Source: Escherichia phage vB_EcoP_IMEP8
Sequence record: NC_070993.1
Direction: 5' to 3' (one strand)
Length of the DNA: 64,000 nucleotides
The position numbers were made by a program, and so were the translations under genes. Positions 26,483 to 37,759 of this stretch are shown in pieces. The notes beneath the pieces are model-generated. The model was not told the DNA's origin and made no database searches. It saw nothing but the letters and a program-made list of their open reading frames with translations. The first letter of the stretch is position 1. Each line of letters opens with the position of its first letter.

Positions 26483-28327
26483 TTAGTGTGTATGCATCCA
26501 GTTAAGTCCAATCTGACAATCAGATGCCAGAGGACATTCCATGTTCAAATACTCACCAGCTTTCTTAACACAAAGCTCAGTGTGTTCTTTGAGTTTCTGT
26601 ACATCATTACGGTTCACTGAGAACTGACCCTCGTCGTGCATGTCAATTACTTTAGCACAACGAACCCCATCTTTCTCAATCCACTTGTTAAGGAACATCA
26701 TAGCATATTTCATAACAACAGCACCAGCACATTGCAGGAGTGTGTTAAGTGCTTTATGAACCATAACTTTGCCAGTGGCATCTCGTCTCATTGTAATCTT
26801 ACGGCCATCAACGCCAATCAAGTATCCTTGAGCAGCTTTCTCTGTCATACGATCAATGAGGATTGCAATACATGGGTTCTCTGCTAAGAAACGTGCTCGC
26901 ATCACTGAACCTTCGTCAGCCCCACCACCTACAATTGAACCGAGCTTAGCATCACCAGCACCATAGTTGAATGCGTAGATAAACGTCTTAGCGTTGTCAC
27001 GAGTAGGAAGACCAGCAAGTTTCTGGTTGTGGGAGTGGATATCACCTTCAAGGAGAATATCACGATACATAATAGCAGAAGCTAAACCACGCTCTGCCAG
27101 AGCTTTCTTAGCTGGATTATTCTCTTCGATTGCTTCAGCAAGCATATCCCTACACTCTTTAATGAGGTAGTGTGCAAGCATACGCAACTCTAATCCAGAA
27201 CCATCATACCCTAAGAATACTTCTTTACCAGCGGGTATGTAATATTTGTAAGCACCTACAGGTTTATCTTTCTTCCCCGGCTTACCTTTCTCATAAATTA
27301 CGTTAGTACCTTTTCGTATATAACAACCATCAGGAACAACGTTAGTAATAATGAAAGGACGAGAGTGATCATCATCTGAGTTATAGTCAGACTCAAACAA
27401 ACCGCGACACTCATGACCAAACAAACCACGGGAGGGAATATTAACCACGATACGATGTTTGAATCGAAAAGTCGGCGTAGCGCAGCTGTTAGCTTCTGCC
27501 GAAAGTTTACCATCTTCGCGTTCCTTTGCTATGAGTCCACTGATAAGACCTAGCCTGTGAGCCGCTACAACGCGTCTCTTAAGCAAACTCCCGACACTCC
27601 CTAGCTCACCCCCTAACCCTTCTTCAAGAGTCTCCTCGAGGTTTGTAGGAGCTGTAGGCCACTTGTTTGAAGTAGCTAGTGCTATCTTAATCTCATCAAA
27701 AGTGATAGGCCTGCGTCGGTTAGGATTTAAACCTAAACCAAATACATAAGCCTTCATGTAGTTCTTAGTTTTAAACCTAAAATGCTTCTCTAAGAACTTC
27801 CTAATGTCAGCGTCAACCATCTCGGCTGTCTGTTTCTGTTTAGCATTACCTCGCATCCAAGCTGAATACCATGCTTGGTATGTTCCATACTTTCGCATAT
27901 CTTTCTTGATTTCAAAAGTATTCCAAGGTTTCTTTGATACGTTAAACTCTGGAGGAAGAAAACCCTCATCCATAAGGGCTTCTTTAACTCGTGCATCTTT
28001 CGATGGGTCAAAGTCTACGTATTCAACACAGGTGAATGCTCCACCAATGTCTTCTCTCTTAAGACCAACTCTATCGCAATAGACTTGAGGCCACTTCTGT
28101 AAAGCTCCAGACTTCTTAAATGGCTTCATATAAGTAGAGCCATCTAATCTCATCTTAGGTAAGAGAGGAATCAGTTCTTTGTCAATATTAACAATAATCT
28201 CTTTAAGGAGGTGAACATACCACCGAGCATTTCTTCGGTTGAAACTCACTCCGTGCTTCGCTTGCTTAGAGATTATATCAGCGACAGTCATCTCTGTCAA
28301 AAATGGGAGAGCGTCCGGGTTGCTCAC
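26483..28327 (-). CDS. DNA polymerase, family A polymerase domain (614 aa, no exonuclease domain)
   Basis: Motif A YDGSGLELRMLAHY, motif B RDNAKTFIYAFNYGAGDAKLG, motif C VIDMHDEGQF. Confidence 0.85.
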   Translation of the reverse strand: MSNPDALPFLTEMTVADIISKQAKHGVSFNRRNARWYVHLLKEIIVNIDKELIPLLPKMRLDGSTYMKPFKKSGALQKWPQVYCDRVGLKREDIGGAFTCVEYVDFDPSKDARVKEALMDEGFLPPEFNVSKKPWNTFEIKKDMRKYGTYQAWYSAWMRGNAKQKQTAEMVDADIRKFLEKHFRFKTKNYMKAYVFGLGLNPNRRRPITFDEIKIALATSNKWPTAPTNLEETLEEGLGGELGSVGSLLKRRVVAAHRLGLISGLIAKEREDGKLSAEANSCATPTFRFKHRIVVNIPSRGLFGHECRGLFESDYNSDDDHSRPFIITNVVPDGCYIRKGTNVIYEKGKPGKKDKPVGAYKYYIPAGKEVFLGYDGSGLELRMLAHYLIKECRDMLAEAIEENNPAKKALAERGLASAIMYRDILLEGDIHSHNQKLAGLPTRDNAKTFIYAFNYGAGDAKLGSIVGGGADEGSVMRARFLAENPCIAILIDRMTEKAAQGYLIGVDGRKITMRRDATGKVMVHKALNTLLQCAGAVVMKYAMMFLNKWIEKDGVRCAKVIDMHDEGQFSVNRNDVQKLKEHTELCVKKAGEYLNMECPLASDCQIGLNWMHTH

Positions 28328-28343
28328 TTTATACTCCTTTAAA

Positions 28344-28766
28344 TTATTGGTAAATCAAATCCGTAAATGCTTGATTATCTTCTACTACATTCAACATGGT
28401 AGCTTCATCGCTGTAAGCCCTAACCGTCCCGTTAACAACTGTCCAAGGAGGAGGTGGAGGTGGTGCATGGTTAGCCCTAGCTTCACGAGGTTGATCTCGT
28501 ACTAGATGAGCCACAACCCTTTGGTTGGCGACCTCTTCTCTTTCTCGGATAGCTCTCTGGATGTAAGCCAACTTCATACCCCAAGCTTCTTCAAACTCTT
28601 GAGGATGTTTGTCACTGATAACCACATACTGACGATCAGGGATACCAGATCGAATCTCTGACAATAGTTCATGGAACAAATCCAGCTCATGTTCAGTGAG
28701 ATTCATTTCGATATCATCCCACTTGAGAACTAGGAAACGGTTTTGATGTCTAGTCGGTAATGGCAT
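28344..28766 (-). CDS. hypothetical protein with poly-proline tract (140 aa)
   Basis: ORF; PPPPPPW stretch. Confidence 0.4.
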   Translation of the reverse strand: MPLPTRHQNRFLVLKWDDIEMNLTEHELDLFHELLSEIRSGIPDRQYVVISDKHPQEFEEAWGMKLAYIQRAIREREEVANQRVVAHLVRDQPREARANHAPPPPPPWTVVNGTVRAYSDEATMLNVVEDNQAFTDLIYQ

Positions 28767-28769
28767 AGC

Positions 28770-29054
28770 TTAACCTTTTGGGAATGGCATTAAAGATTCC
28801 ATAGCAGTCTTAGTTTCACTATTGATTCGTAGGTCTCGATAAGAGATAAACTTACCTTTGCTATCTCGTAACATTACATGAGTTCTAGCTGTTTTATGAG
28901 GAAGTAAAGTAATACTGGTTGGGATAGTATCAATCTCTACAGAGAAGTCATCAATAGTCTTACTATCCGCTAATAAGTAGGACCAAGTACGTGGTTTCTG
29001 CTCTGGGCGATTGGGGTATGTGTCTCGAATCTGAACCATAGCTAACTTATTCAT
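28770..29054 (-). CDS. small protein, member of tandem paralog pair (PFPKG C-terminus)
   Basis: Shares KTARTxV.LRxxxGKFISY...PFPKG with neighbour. Confidence 0.5.
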   Translation of the reverse strand: MNKLAMVQIRDTYPNRPEQKPRTWSYLLADSKTIDDFSVEIDTIPTSITLLPHKTARTHVMLRDSKGKFISYRDLRINSETKTAMESLMPFPKG

Positions 29055-35844: not shown

Positions 35845-35853
35845 TCTTATTCC

Positions 35854-37203
35854 TTAGTTATTTGTTTCCATGTCAAAAGAAATTCCACGACCCGCTTCAT
35901 CGGCAAACCGAACTGTACGGGTTTGAGGCTGCAATACTTCAGGGTTATCAGCAACAAAACGATCAGCGAGACTGCGACTGACAGTCTCAGCTAATTCACC
36001 ATGAGAAGGGATATCAAGATCACCAACAGTGGAACTCTGAGCAGAGGCTTCATCAGTCCATACAGCCCTAACAGGTGCGTTGAAACTCTGACCAGAGAAC
36101 TGGTGACGGTTAACAGTCAAACCATTTGATTGATCATTAGAACGTCTAGACAACCACCGCTCAAATGAATCGCTAGTAACACCAAGAGCTTCTTCAAAAG
36201 ATGTTCTACGAGTAGAGCTTAGGTTTCGTGCCTCTTGTGCTCGACGTCTTGCAGGTACTGCAAACACCCCTTCAATTGCATTGTGTCGGTTAGGTTCATC
36301 TTCCCGACCAAGCAGATCACCACCTGTGTTAGTTGTTAAGTTTGTCAATCCTTCAGACCAATACGCATGAATCTGGCTAGAGCCGTGAAGATTTGACATA
36401 ACCTGAATCTCTTCATAAGGTATACCAAAGAATCGACTCATATCTCGGTTAACACAATACTGAGCACTTGTTGTATCTTCAAGAAGAGCAACCTGACCTA
36501 GTTCGTTGACCAGATGACTAACCGATTGAGGTGTGGGAAGATATCGAGTTTGGGCCATGTATTGATGTGCAACTGCTGGAGAGGAAAATCTCAACACTTG
36601 CGAGTTAGGCCACTTCTTGTGAACGTATCTGATTTCACGACTAGAAACAACCACCGGGCAAGGGGCGGTCATCGCCAAGTATCCATGAGAAGTCATGAAT
36701 AGGCTGTCAAGAGTCATCGCACCACGGCACATCATAGGGAAATTGTCCATTACTTCTTCAATAGAAGTAGGATAGTTAAACATGAATTGAATTCGGGTTC
36801 CGTTCCACTGGAACTCAATAATATCAGTGAAAGTTAATTGGGAACCTTCGGCATAAGTCTCATTCGTAGCTTCAGCCAGAAGGGAAGCATACTCGATACC
36901 TTGTGATTCAAGCCACTCTTTCACATTACTTTCAATTTCTCTTCCAAGATCTTGCCAACGATCAGTTGGGATGAAATAGTTTTGGGTTCTTGGTGCCTGT
37001 CCTCTGACAATAAAGATATCAATGTCATGTGGAGCTGTGTTATTAAGTACAGCATCACGAACAGCCCCACCAGTAATGATGGGACAAATACCGTCTGGAA
37101 TCAAGTTGTTGTCAATTAATTGTTCAATGAAGTGACGACCAACAGTGATATCAGGTTGTTGAGCAACCTTATCTTCAATTCGGTTAATCGGGATAACAAT
37201 CAT
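35854..37203 (-). CDS. Pol-beta-superfamily nucleotidyltransferase, CCA-adding enzyme / poly(A) polymerase head-domain-like
   Basis: ITGGAVRDAVL...HDIDIF matches GGxVRD...DxD head motif of class-II tRNA nucleotidyltransferases. Confidence 0.6.
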   Translation of the reverse strand: MIVIPINRIEDKVAQQPDITVGRHFIEQLIDNNLIPDGICPIITGGAVRDAVLNNTAPHDIDIFIVRGQAPRTQNYFIPTDRWQDLGREIESNVKEWLESQGIEYASLLAEATNETYAEGSQLTFTDIIEFQWNGTRIQFMFNYPTSIEEVMDNFPMMCRGAMTLDSLFMTSHGYLAMTAPCPVVVSSREIRYVHKKWPNSQVLRFSSPAVAHQYMAQTRYLPTPQSVSHLVNELGQVALLEDTTSAQYCVNRDMSRFFGIPYEEIQVMSNLHGSSQIHAYWSEGLTNLTTNTGGDLLGREDEPNRHNAIEGVFAVPARRRAQEARNLSSTRRTSFEEALGVTSDSFERWLSRRSNDQSNGLTVNRHQFSGQSFNAPVRAVWTDEASAQSSTVGDLDIPSHGELAETVSRSLADRFVADNPEVLQPQTRTVRFADEAGRGISFDMETNN

Positions 37204-37204
37204 T

Positions 37205-37759
37205 TTACATTTTCCAATATAATGAAGGTGGGTCGTAAGGGTCAAATCCTGTGAGTTCACACAAGAAAAGATAAACCTTAACAGTTAAGTTAACGTCCTG
37301 TTCACAGTAAGTAAACATATCTTCAGTGAAAGCATCCCATGCTTCCTCTTGCTCACCGTAATCTCCTTTAAGTTCCTCTAAGAACTCACCCCATTGCTTC
37401 AAACCATGACCTCTTGGGCCATGTCTAGGGTCGCCTTTCGGATACTCAGGACTATCACCAATACGGTCAGGTTTAAGATATCGACTAAGACACAGAGTGT
37501 CAAAGACGTTAAAATGATATTTAATCAAAGATGGATACATCTTCTTCAGAGCACAAAGGTCGAAGTCAATGATGTTATGACCCACGAGCACATCAGCTTC
37601 TGTAAGTTTACGAATCCCATCTTCAATTTGGTGAGGCCGATAGCCCCACCTTTCACCAGTTTCAACATCGAATATGTAAATACACCACACTTTAGTTATG
37701 TCATCGTACAGTGCATTACTCTCGATATCAAATGCAAACACTTTCTTTTTCTTTACCAC
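37205..37759 (-). CDS. DnaQ-like 3'-5' exonuclease (separate proofreading domain of split family-A polymerase)
   Basis: Exo motifs FDIES, HNIIDFD, YCEQDV. Confidence 0.7.

What the first reader, a model, noticed from the sequence alone, without database searches (positions are those of the whole stretch)
26483..37759. Family-A DNA polymerase split into widely separated exonuclease and polymerase genes
The polymerase gene (26483-28327) has motifs A, B and C but no exonuclease motifs, while a stand-alone DnaQ-like 3'-5' exonuclease with Exo I-III (37205-37759) lies about 9 kb away, separated by more than 25 genes. The two products presumably assemble in trans. The arrangement is unusual and offers a system for studying proofreading-domain association.
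Basis: partly seen in the sequence, partly recalled or inferred. Interest (0 to 1): 0.45.

Follow-up and report, generated by a model that had tools for sequence, protein, structure and literature searches.

The report
Known split phage DNA polymerase genes

Summary
The window is a Kuravirus (phiEco32-like) genome; the pol gene is 97.9% identical in DNA to phage NJ01. Both genes lie on the minus strand. The 184-aa exonuclease (37205-37759) matches T7 gp5 residues 2-189. It has the polymerase-type Exo III motif (YCEQD, DEDDy class), and its catalytic residues are invariant in 44 homologues. The 614-aa polymerase (26483-28327) matches T7 gp5 residues 212-704 with motifs A, B and C, and shows no trace of an exonuclease domain. 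The break therefore sits at the exo/pol domain boundary.

The exonuclease gene overlaps the stop codon of the primase/helicase gene, where T7 gene 5 would begin. A block of 8,877 bp and about 25 ORFs, mostly nucleotide metabolism genes, separates it from pol.

The same gene order with a growing gap appears in P-SSP7 (adjacent genes), Bruynoghevirus (1.9 kb) and Grimontviridae (5.95 kb).

The split is already published. The phiEco32 RefSeq note says the polymerase lacks the exonuclease domains, and PMC3517423 and PMC9965538 describe the separation as common to the group.

Assembly of the two products in trans is plausible but untested. Novelty: already known. Interest is low.

The parts
37753..39543 (-). 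T7 gp4-like primase/helicase gene (596 aa). It lies directly upstream of the exo gene, and its stop codon overlaps the exo start.
   Evidence: Pfam DnaB_C at E=9.9e-11 plus a weak Toprim_2 match. Annotated 'DNA primase/helicase' in phage Paul. The overlap sequence is CCGTGGTAA.
37205..37759 (-). Stand-alone 3'-5' proofreading exonuclease (184 aa, DEDDy class), equivalent to T7 gp5 residues 2-189.
   Evidence: Pfam PF01612 scores 33.8 bits against a cut-off of 23.6. The only PDB sequence hits are T7 gp5 residues 3-178, E=2.2e-10. The family profile matches T7 gp5 residues 2-189 at E=1.6e-37. The AF2 model has pLDDT 93.7, and its best 27 fold hits are T7 DNA polymerase chains.
37718..37732 (-). 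Exo I motif FDIES (D11, E13).
   Evidence: Coordinates. D11 and E13 are invariant in 44 homologues. They align with T7 D5 and E7.
37559..37582 (-). Exo II motif GHNIIDFD (H61, N62, D67).
   Evidence: Aligns with T7 HNGHKYD.
37295..37309 (-). Exo III motif YCEQD (Y151, D155). This Y-x3-D form is the polymerase type, not the H-x4-D form of RNase T and DnaQ.
28328..37204 (-). Intervening block of 8,877 bp with about 25 co-directional ORFs. It includes a nucleotidyltransferase-like gene (35854-37203), dCTP deaminase (35311-35844), a Dps/ferritin-like DNA-binding protein (33534-34133), thioredoxin (33010-33285), ThyX (32338-32994), a stand-alone ligase domain Ia (31654-32010), PhoH (30117-30860) and many small ORFs of unknown function.
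   Evidence: ORF list. PHROG and Pfam assignments. Matching annotation in phage Paul.
26483..28327 (-). Family A DNA polymerase, polymerase domain only (614 aa), equivalent to T7 gp5 residues about 208-704.
   Evidence: Pfam PF00476 at E=8.8e-23. The best PDB sequence hits are T7 gp5, E=1.3e-32. The family profile matches T7 gp5 residues 212-704 at E=8.4e-76. The AF2 model has pLDDT 92.7, and its best fold hits are T7 DNA polymerase, E=4.6e-26. The protein is identical to the Shigella phage SGF2 polymerase.
27182..27205 (-). Pol motif A, DGSGLELR (D375, E380).
   Evidence: Invariant in 78 homologues.
26960..27001 (-). Pol motif B, RDNAKTFIYAFNYG (R443, K447, Y451).
   Evidence: Aligns with T7 RDNAKTFIYGFLYG.
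26630..26638 (-). Pol motif C, HDE (H564, D565, E566).
20336..21154 (-). Separately encoded 5'-3' exonuclease (272 aa), as T7 gp6 is. This is the third Pol I-type activity encoded as its own gene.
   Evidence: Pfam 5_3_exonuc_N at E=6.5e-6, which is below the gathering score. The homologue in phage Paul is annotated as an exonuclease similar to the phiEco32 5'-3' exonuclease. PMC9965538 describes it as a separate subunit.

Best explanation
The window carries the replication module of a phiEco32-like (Kuravirus) podophage. Its T7 gp5-type family A DNA polymerase is broken at the linker between the 3'-5' exonuclease domain and the polymerase domain, giving two genes.

The exonuclease gene keeps the ancestral position. 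It lies directly downstream of the gp4-like primase/helicase and is probably translationally coupled to it. The polymerase gene lies 8.9 kb further down the same leftward middle-gene cluster. The DNA between them is a block of nucleotide metabolism genes and small ORFs that differs in size between phage lineages.

Shown here: both products keep every catalytic residue, and both fold like the matching T7 gp5 domains.

Inferred, not shown: the two proteins are made in the same expression class, associate non-covalently on the primer-template, and restore a proofreading replicase. In that picture the free exonuclease edits mispaired 3' ends released by the polymerase, much as the separate epsilon subunit does for E. 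coli Pol III.
For: - Identity of the phage: the pol gene is 97.9% identical in DNA to phage NJ01, and 118 related phage records match.
- Domain boundary: the exo+pol concatenation aligns end to end with T7 gp5, with the junction at T7 residues about 190-210. The exo profile covers T7 residues 2-189 and the pol profile covers 212-704, with no overlap.
- Purifying selection: catalytic residues are invariant in 44 exo homologues and 78 pol homologues.
- Folds: both high-confidence AF2 models hit T7 DNA polymerase first.
- Ancestry: of the 150 best representatives for the exo profile, 99 are fused exo+pol proteins in which the pol profile starts at residue about 155-185, directly after the exo domain.
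- Co-inheritance (inferred from matching values): exo and pol homologues list the same longest-contig lengths (81643, 86560, 100903, 112127, 20510), and their identities to the window proteins fall together.
- Conserved gene order primase/helicase -> exo -> gap -> pol, with a growing gap: T7 is fused; P-SSP7 has adjacent genes; Bruynoghevirus has 7 genes in 1.9 kb; Grimontviridae has 18 genes in 5.95 kb; this window has 8,877 bp.
- Expression: the pol and nucleotide metabolism genes belong to the phiEco32 middle class (PMC8948821; PMC4281155).
- Literature: the separation is stated to be common to all group members (PMC9965538; PMC3517423), and the phiEco32 RefSeq note says the same for pol.
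Against: - No result here or in the papers I could read shows that the two proteins bind each other or that the exonuclease edits for this polymerase.
- The exo gene is coupled to the primase/helicase gene, not to pol, so its partner could in principle be another protein.
- The pol carries three lineage-specific insertions relative to T7 gp5: about 60-70 aa in the thumb, about 44 aa before motif A and about 25 aa after it. These could alter the surface that contacts the exo domain in T7.
- Terminator-like hairpins lie between the two genes, at 33499-33527 and 29349-29372, so they need not be on one transcript.
Confidence: 0.7

Rival explanations
1. The exonuclease works independently of the polymerase, for example as a helicase-associated or repair/recombination nuclease, or in degrading host DNA. 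The polymerase would then replicate without proofreading.
For: The exo start codon overlaps the primase/helicase stop codon, which suggests coupled synthesis with the helicase rather than with pol. The stand-alone form has been stable over deep divergence, with homologues of 154-212 aa down to 35% identity. This shows the protein folds and is selected on its own.
Against: In T7 the same position after gene 4 is simply where gene 5 begins, so gene order is explained by ancestry. The protein is the orthologue of the gp5 proofreading domain by sequence and by fold. Matching contig lengths suggest that exo and pol travel together. PMC9965538 reports both genes in every group member. The genome also has a separate 5'-3' exonuclease for other nuclease tasks.
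Confidence: 0.2
2. The two products are joined into one chain after or during synthesis, by a split intein, RNA trans-splicing or recoding.
For: Related phages carry insertions with homing endonuclease genes inside pol, one of them annotated as a joined CDS. P-SSP7's adjacent exo and pol genes are annotated as a possible programmed event.
Against: The exo (184 aa) and pol (614 aa) are fully accounted for by T7 residues 2-189 and 212-704. No surplus sequence remains at the junction for intein halves. Each gene has its own Shine-Dalgarno sequence and GTG start. About 25 co-directional genes lie between them. No intron family was detected in the window.
Confidence: 0.01
3. The exonuclease is an unrelated RNase T/DnaQ-type nuclease, and the polymerase gene hides a degenerate exonuclease domain.
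For: There is a weak secondary Pfam match to RNase_H_2, below its cut-off. The pol has about 360 aa upstream of the Pfam-matched region.
Against: Exo III is Y-x3-D, not H-x4-D. No RNase T or epsilon chain is among the PDB sequence hits, and none that I could recognise is among the top 50 fold hits. The pol N-terminus aligns with T7 residues about 208 onward, and the extra length is explained by insertions in the thumb and palm. The exo profile finds nothing in pol.
Confidence: 0.01

Closest known systems
Escherichia phage phiEco32 (Kuravirus): DNA polymerase phi32_53 and 3'-5' exonuclease gp74
   Same: The genes, gene order and spacing are the same. The 5' end of pol is about 96% identical in DNA. 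The RefSeq note on the polymerase reads 'lacks 5'-3' and 3'-5' exonuclease domains'. Phage Paul's annotation names the 3'-5' exonuclease gp74 homologue next to the primase/helicase.
   Different: Only strain-level sequence differences. The window has one more small ORF near the ligase-like gene than phage Paul.
LUZ24-like Pseudomonas phages (Bruynoghevirus): 'DNA polymerase exonuclease subunit' plus 'DNA polymerase'
   Same: The break is at the same domain boundary, and the exo gene overlaps the end of the primase/helicase gene. The pol is 38-42% identical. PMC3517423 explicitly equates this arrangement with phiEco32.
   Different: The gap is only 7 small genes in 1.9 kb. The pol is about 70 aa shorter.
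Bacteriophage T7 gene 5 DNA polymerase
   Same: It is the best solved-structure match for both halves. It has the same catalytic motifs and the same position after the gp4-type primase/helicase.
   Different: T7 has one 704-aa chain. The T7 thioredoxin-binding loop is longer. The window's pol has three extra insertions. The phage encodes its own thioredoxin, whereas T7 uses the host's.
Grimontviridae (Salmonella phage 7-11 group, e.g. PKM.Hi.22.6)
   Same: The split is the same, and the intervening block has the same kind of content (dCTP deaminase, PhoH, ThyX). PMC9965538 lists 7-11 as sharing the separation.
   Different: The gap is 5.95 kb with 18 genes. The pol is further interrupted into pieces of 456 aa and 126 aa. 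An endonuclease VII gene sits between the helicase and exo genes.
E. coli DNA polymerase III alpha (DnaE) and epsilon (DnaQ)
   Same: It is a functional analogy for proofreading supplied in trans by a separate small DEDD exonuclease subunit (established knowledge).
   Different: The polymerase is family C. Epsilon is of the DEDDh class and is not derived from a PolA exo domain.

Membership tests
Family A DNA polymerase, T7 gp5-type polymerase domain (PF00476) | Motif A with the catalytic Asp (D-x-x-x-L-E-x-R) | tested here: met
   DGSGLELR at residues 375-382. D375 and E380 are invariant in 78 homologues.
Family A DNA polymerase, T7 gp5-type polymerase domain (PF00476) | Motif B (R-x3-K-x3-F/Y-x3-Y-G) and motif C (HDE) | tested here: met
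   RDNAKTFIYAFNYG at 443-456 and HDE at 564-566. R443, K447, Y451, H564, D565 and E566 are invariant.
Family A DNA polymerase, T7 gp5-type polymerase domain (PF00476) | Pfam score above the gathering threshold, and a polymerase fold | tested here: met
   81.3 bits against a cut-off of 34.3. The AF2 model (pLDDT 92.7) hits T7 DNA polymerase at E=4.6e-26.
Family A DNA polymerase, T7 gp5-type polymerase domain (PF00476) | DNA-templated DNA synthesis activity | not testable with these tools
   Needs an enzyme assay.
DEDDy 3'-5' exonuclease domain of family A polymerases (PF01612) | Exo I (D-x-E), Exo II (N-x2-3-F/Y-D) and Exo III (Y-x3-D) with all four acidic residues and the Tyr | tested here: met
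   D11, E13, N62, D67, Y151 and D155 are present and invariant in 44 homologues.
DEDDy 3'-5' exonuclease domain of family A polymerases (PF01612) | Pfam score above the gathering threshold, and closest solved relatives being polymerase exo domains | tested here: met
   33.8 bits against a cut-off of 23.6. The only PDB sequence hits are T7 gp5 residues 3-178. The top 27 fold hits are T7 gp5 chains.
DEDDy 3'-5' exonuclease domain of family A polymerases (PF01612) | 3'-5' exonuclease activity on mismatched primer ends | not testable with these tools
   Needs an enzyme assay.
Two-gene (split exo/pol) PolA of phiEco32-like and LUZ24-like phages | The pol gene lacks the exo domain, and the break falls at the exo/pol domain boundary | tested here: met
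   The exo profile covers T7 residues 2-189 and the pol profile covers 212-704. The exo profile finds nothing in pol. See also the end-to-end alignment.
Two-gene (split exo/pol) PolA of phiEco32-like and LUZ24-like phages | The exo gene lies directly downstream of the primase/helicase gene, with pol further downstream on the same strand | tested here: met
   Window. The same order is seen in Paul, Bruynoghevirus and Grimontviridae.
Two-gene (split exo/pol) PolA of phiEco32-like and LUZ24-like phages | Close sequence identity to named members | tested here: met
   The pol is 97.9% identical in DNA to NJ01 and identical in protein to SGF2. The exo is 96.7-98.9% identical to those of PE006, 172-1 and CHD5UKE1.
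Two-gene (split exo/pol) PolA of phiEco32-like and LUZ24-like phages | Physical and functional association of the two products | not testable with these tools
   No multimer prediction or experiment was available, and I found no report in the papers searched.
RNase T / DnaQ-epsilon (DEDDh) exonucleases (considered and rejected) | Exo III motif H-x4-D | tested here: not met
   Exo III is YCEQD, the Y-x3-D form. No RNase T or epsilon chain is among the PDB sequence hits, and none that I could recognise is in the top 50 fold hits.
Split-intein trans-spliced polymerase (considered and rejected) | An N-intein at the C-terminus of the first product and a C-intein at the N-terminus of the second | tested here: not met
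   There is no surplus sequence. The exo ends and the pol begins within the T7 interdomain linker.

The most novel reading that the evidence does not exclude
Encoding the exonuclease separately, coupled in translation to the primase/helicase rather than to pol, could make proofreading a property of the whole replisome. Its dose would then be adjustable. The exo might dock on the helicase or exchange on and off the polymerase, letting the phage tune its mutation rate or its tolerance of modified or damaged templates. The steady widening of the exo-pol gap across lineages would be a by-product of this functional uncoupling.
Probability: 0.1. Interest if true: 0.55.

Novelty: already known. Interest (0 to 1): 0.15.

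Why it matters
The finding adds little for discovery. The split is in the phiEco32 reference annotation and in at least two papers, and current annotations already name the gene 'DNA polymerase exonuclease subunit'.

What remains open, as far as I could find, is biochemical. It is not known whether a family A polymerase domain and its detached proofreading domain form a stable complex, and how fidelity depends on their ratio.

The graded series may be useful background for anyone who takes up that question. It runs from fused (T7) through adjacent (P-SSP7), 1.9 kb (Bruynoghevirus) and 5.95 kb (Grimontviridae) to 8.9 kb (Kuravirus), always with the same domain-boundary break and the same anchoring to the primase/helicase gene.

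Tried and rejected
- The original phiEco32 paper (Savalia 2008, PMC2587145) is not held. I relied on papers that cite it and on the RefSeq note.
- An Rfam scan of the window and of two relatives with interrupted pol genes found only a tRNA and no group I or II intron family. The nature of those interruptions is therefore unresolved.
- The split-intein, trans-splicing and recoding readings were rejected because no surplus sequence exists at the junction and each gene has its own RBS.
- The cryptic exonuclease reading was rejected.
- The RNase T-type reading was rejected.
- I tested whether the perfect sigma-70 promoter inside pol is protected at synonymous sites. The -10 codons are an invariant run of 4 codons in 6 phages. 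However, 30% of conserved degenerate codons are invariant, and another run of equal length exists, so the test is not significant.
- One script failed on a file name, and one pattern search used the wrong spacer length. Both were repeated correctly.
- I did not try a concatenated exo+pol structure prediction. A covalent link and fused homologues in the alignment would force a T7-like arrangement and prove nothing about association in trans.

Full report
**What the window is.** The pol ORF is 97.9% identical in DNA to Escherichia phage NJ01. It matches 118 phage records, nearly all from Escherichia, Shigella or Salmonella podophages of the phiEco32 group (Kuravirus, Gordonclarkvirinae). The encoded protein is identical to the polymerase of Shigella phage SGF2. 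The genes in the flagged region all lie on the minus strand.

**Checking the observation.** The two ORFs are at the stated coordinates.

- The pol gene (26483-28327, minus strand, 614 aa) starts at a GTG six bases after AAGGAG.
  - It matches Pfam DNA_pol_A at E=8.8e-23.
  - Motifs A (DGSGLELR, 375-382), B (RDNAKTFIYAFNYG, 443-456) and C (HDE, 564-566) are present, and their key residues are invariant in an alignment of 78 homologues.
- The exo gene (37205-37759, minus strand, 184 aa) starts at a GTG seven bases after GGAG. This start overlaps the stop codon of the upstream primase/helicase gene (CCGTGGTAA).
  - It passes the Pfam threshold for the family A 3'-5' exonuclease domain, at 33.8 bits against 23.6.
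  - Exo I (FDIES), Exo II (GHNIIDFD) and Exo III (YCEQD) are present, and D11, E13, D67, Y151 and D155 are invariant in 44 homologues.
- The gap between the two genes is 8,877 bp.
  - I count 25 tiled minus-strand ORFs of at least 55 aa in it. The annotated relative phage Paul has 28 CDS there.

**Where the break lies.** The exo and pol proteins joined end to end align with T7 gp5 over its whole length.

- The exo ends (…[14 protein letters not shown]) and the pol begins (MSNPDALPFLTEMTVADIISKQAKHGVSF…) within the T7 interdomain segment, at about residues 190-210.
- A profile of the exo family covers T7 gp5 residues 2-189 (E=1.6e-37).
- A profile of the pol family covers residues 212-704 (E=8.4e-76).
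- The two profiles do not overlap, and the exo profile finds nothing in the pol protein.
- PDB sequence searches give T7 gp5 as the best hit for pol and the only hit for exo.
- The AF2 models are confident (pLDDT 92.7 and 93.7). Their best fold matches are T7 DNA polymerase chains, at E=4.6e-26 for pol and E=2.8e-11 for exo, whose first 27 hits are all T7.

The extra length of the pol relative to the T7 polymerase domain comes from three insertions: about 60-70 aa of helices in the thumb, about 44 aa of beta-hairpins before motif A, and about 25 aa after motif A. It does not come from a degenerate exonuclease domain.

Exo III is Y-x3-D, the polymerase (DEDDy) form, not the H-x4-D form of RNase T and epsilon.

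**How general the split is.**

- All 50 word-indexed homologues of the exo, down to 35% identity, are stand-alone proteins of 105-212 aa.
- 119 of the 120 best pol homologues are pol-only. They include the 'DNA polymerase part II' proteins of LUZ24-like Pseudomonas phages.
- An exhaustive profile search with the exo family found 5,112 relatives. Of the 150 best representatives, 99 are fused exo+pol proteins in which the pol profile begins at residue about 155-185, directly after the exo domain. Another 43 are short and carry no pol.

The stand-alone exo is therefore the detached N-terminal domain of a T7-type polymerase, and both arrangements are common in this broad family.

**Gene order in other lineages.** The order primase/helicase -> exo -> gap -> pol is kept while the gap grows:

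| Lineage | Arrangement of exo and pol |
|---|---|
| T7 | fused in one gene |
| P-SSP7 | adjacent, overlapping genes |
| Bruynoghevirus | 7 genes, 1.9 kb apart |
| Grimontviridae | 18 genes, 5.95 kb apart |
| This window (Kuravirus) | about 25 ORFs, 8,877 bp apart |

The Grimontviridae and Kuravirus gaps share dCTP deaminase, PhoH and ThyX, so the split predates the divergence of those groups.

**What is already published.**

- The phiEco32 RefSeq record annotates the polymerase as lacking 5'-3' and 3'-5' exonuclease domains.
- Phage Paul's annotation refers to the '3-5 exonuclease gp74' of phiEco32.
- PMC3517423 (2012) states that pol and proofreading exonuclease are separate genes in all LUZ24-group phages, and that a similar organisation was reported for phiEco32.
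[quoted passage not shown] It adds that the same is seen in 7-11, Privateer, Vp_R1 and BUCT695.
- Current phage annotations label the gene 'DNA polymerase exonuclease subunit'.

The finding is therefore correct but already known.

**Mechanism.**

- Shown: both halves are under purifying selection on their catalytic residues and fold like the matching T7 domains.
- Supported by matching contig lengths and by the literature: the two genes travel together.
- From the literature: the pol and nucleotide metabolism genes belong to the middle, leftward-transcribed class in phiEco32-like phages.
- Inferred only: the two proteins associate without a covalent link and give a proofreading replicase, in analogy to Pol III alpha/epsilon.

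I put this at about 0.7. The main rival, at 0.2, is that the exo acts independently of pol, for instance with the helicase to which its synthesis is coupled. Joining of the products by an intein, by splicing or by recoding is excluded for practical purposes. No surplus sequence exists at the junction, each gene has its own RBS, and about 25 genes lie between them.

**Verdict.** Novelty: already known. Interest: 0.15.

Noticed in passing
window 28272-28300 (minus strand), inside the pol gene, 27 nt after its start codon: There is a perfect extended sigma-70 consensus promoter, TTGACA-17-TATAAT with TG at -15/-14, pointing the same way as pol. It is the only site in the 64-kb window within one mismatch of this pattern. 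The TGATATAAT element is invariant in six phages, including lineages at about 78% DNA identity. The -35 hexamer is consensus only in the phiEco32 clade. A synonymous-site test was not significant. Its function is unknown.
   Followed up: partly
L003 (phage Bas93) 301-2851; L004 (phage PE006) 297-2712; L012 (phage PKM.Hi.22.6) 20446-22901: In several relatives the pol gene is further interrupted by insertions, two of which carry homing endonuclease genes, at three or more different sites. Bas93 has an endonuclease VII gene within a CDS annotated as joined. PE006 has a homing endonuclease gene about 50 codons from the end. PKM.Hi.22.6 has pieces of 456 aa and 126 aa. Pol fragments of about 450 aa are also common in metagenomes. 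No Rfam intron family was detected. The window's own pol gene is uninterrupted.
   Followed up: partly
window 35854-37203 (minus strand): A 449-aa nucleotidyltransferase-like gene starts one base after the exo stop codon. It matches phrog_12715 at E=7.8e-251 and has a weak Pfam PolyA_pol head match. Its C-terminal third looks low in complexity. It is annotated as hypothetical in phage Paul. It is absent from the same position in Grimontviridae.
   Followed up: no
window 31654-32010 (minus strand): This 118-aa protein consists only of the NAD+-binding domain Ia of NAD-dependent DNA ligase (Pfam Nlig-Ia, E=4e-35). Relatives annotate it as 'DNA ligase', but it is too short to be a ligase on its own.
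   Followed up: no
window 33010-33285 (minus strand): A phage-encoded thioredoxin (91 aa, Pfam Thioredoxin E=1.2e-12, active site CAPC) lies between exo and pol. The pol has only a shortened counterpart of the T7 thioredoxin-binding loop. PMC7881722 proposes that such a thioredoxin serves as the polymerase processivity factor.
   Followed up: partly
window 53146-53222 (minus strand): A tRNA-Arg (anticodon TCT) gene.
   Followed up: no
L012 13633-13998 (phage PKM.Hi.22.6): In this Grimontviridae relative an endonuclease VII-type gene sits between the primase/helicase and exo genes. The tight helicase-exo overlap seen in Kuravirus and Bruynoghevirus is therefore not universal.
   Followed up: no
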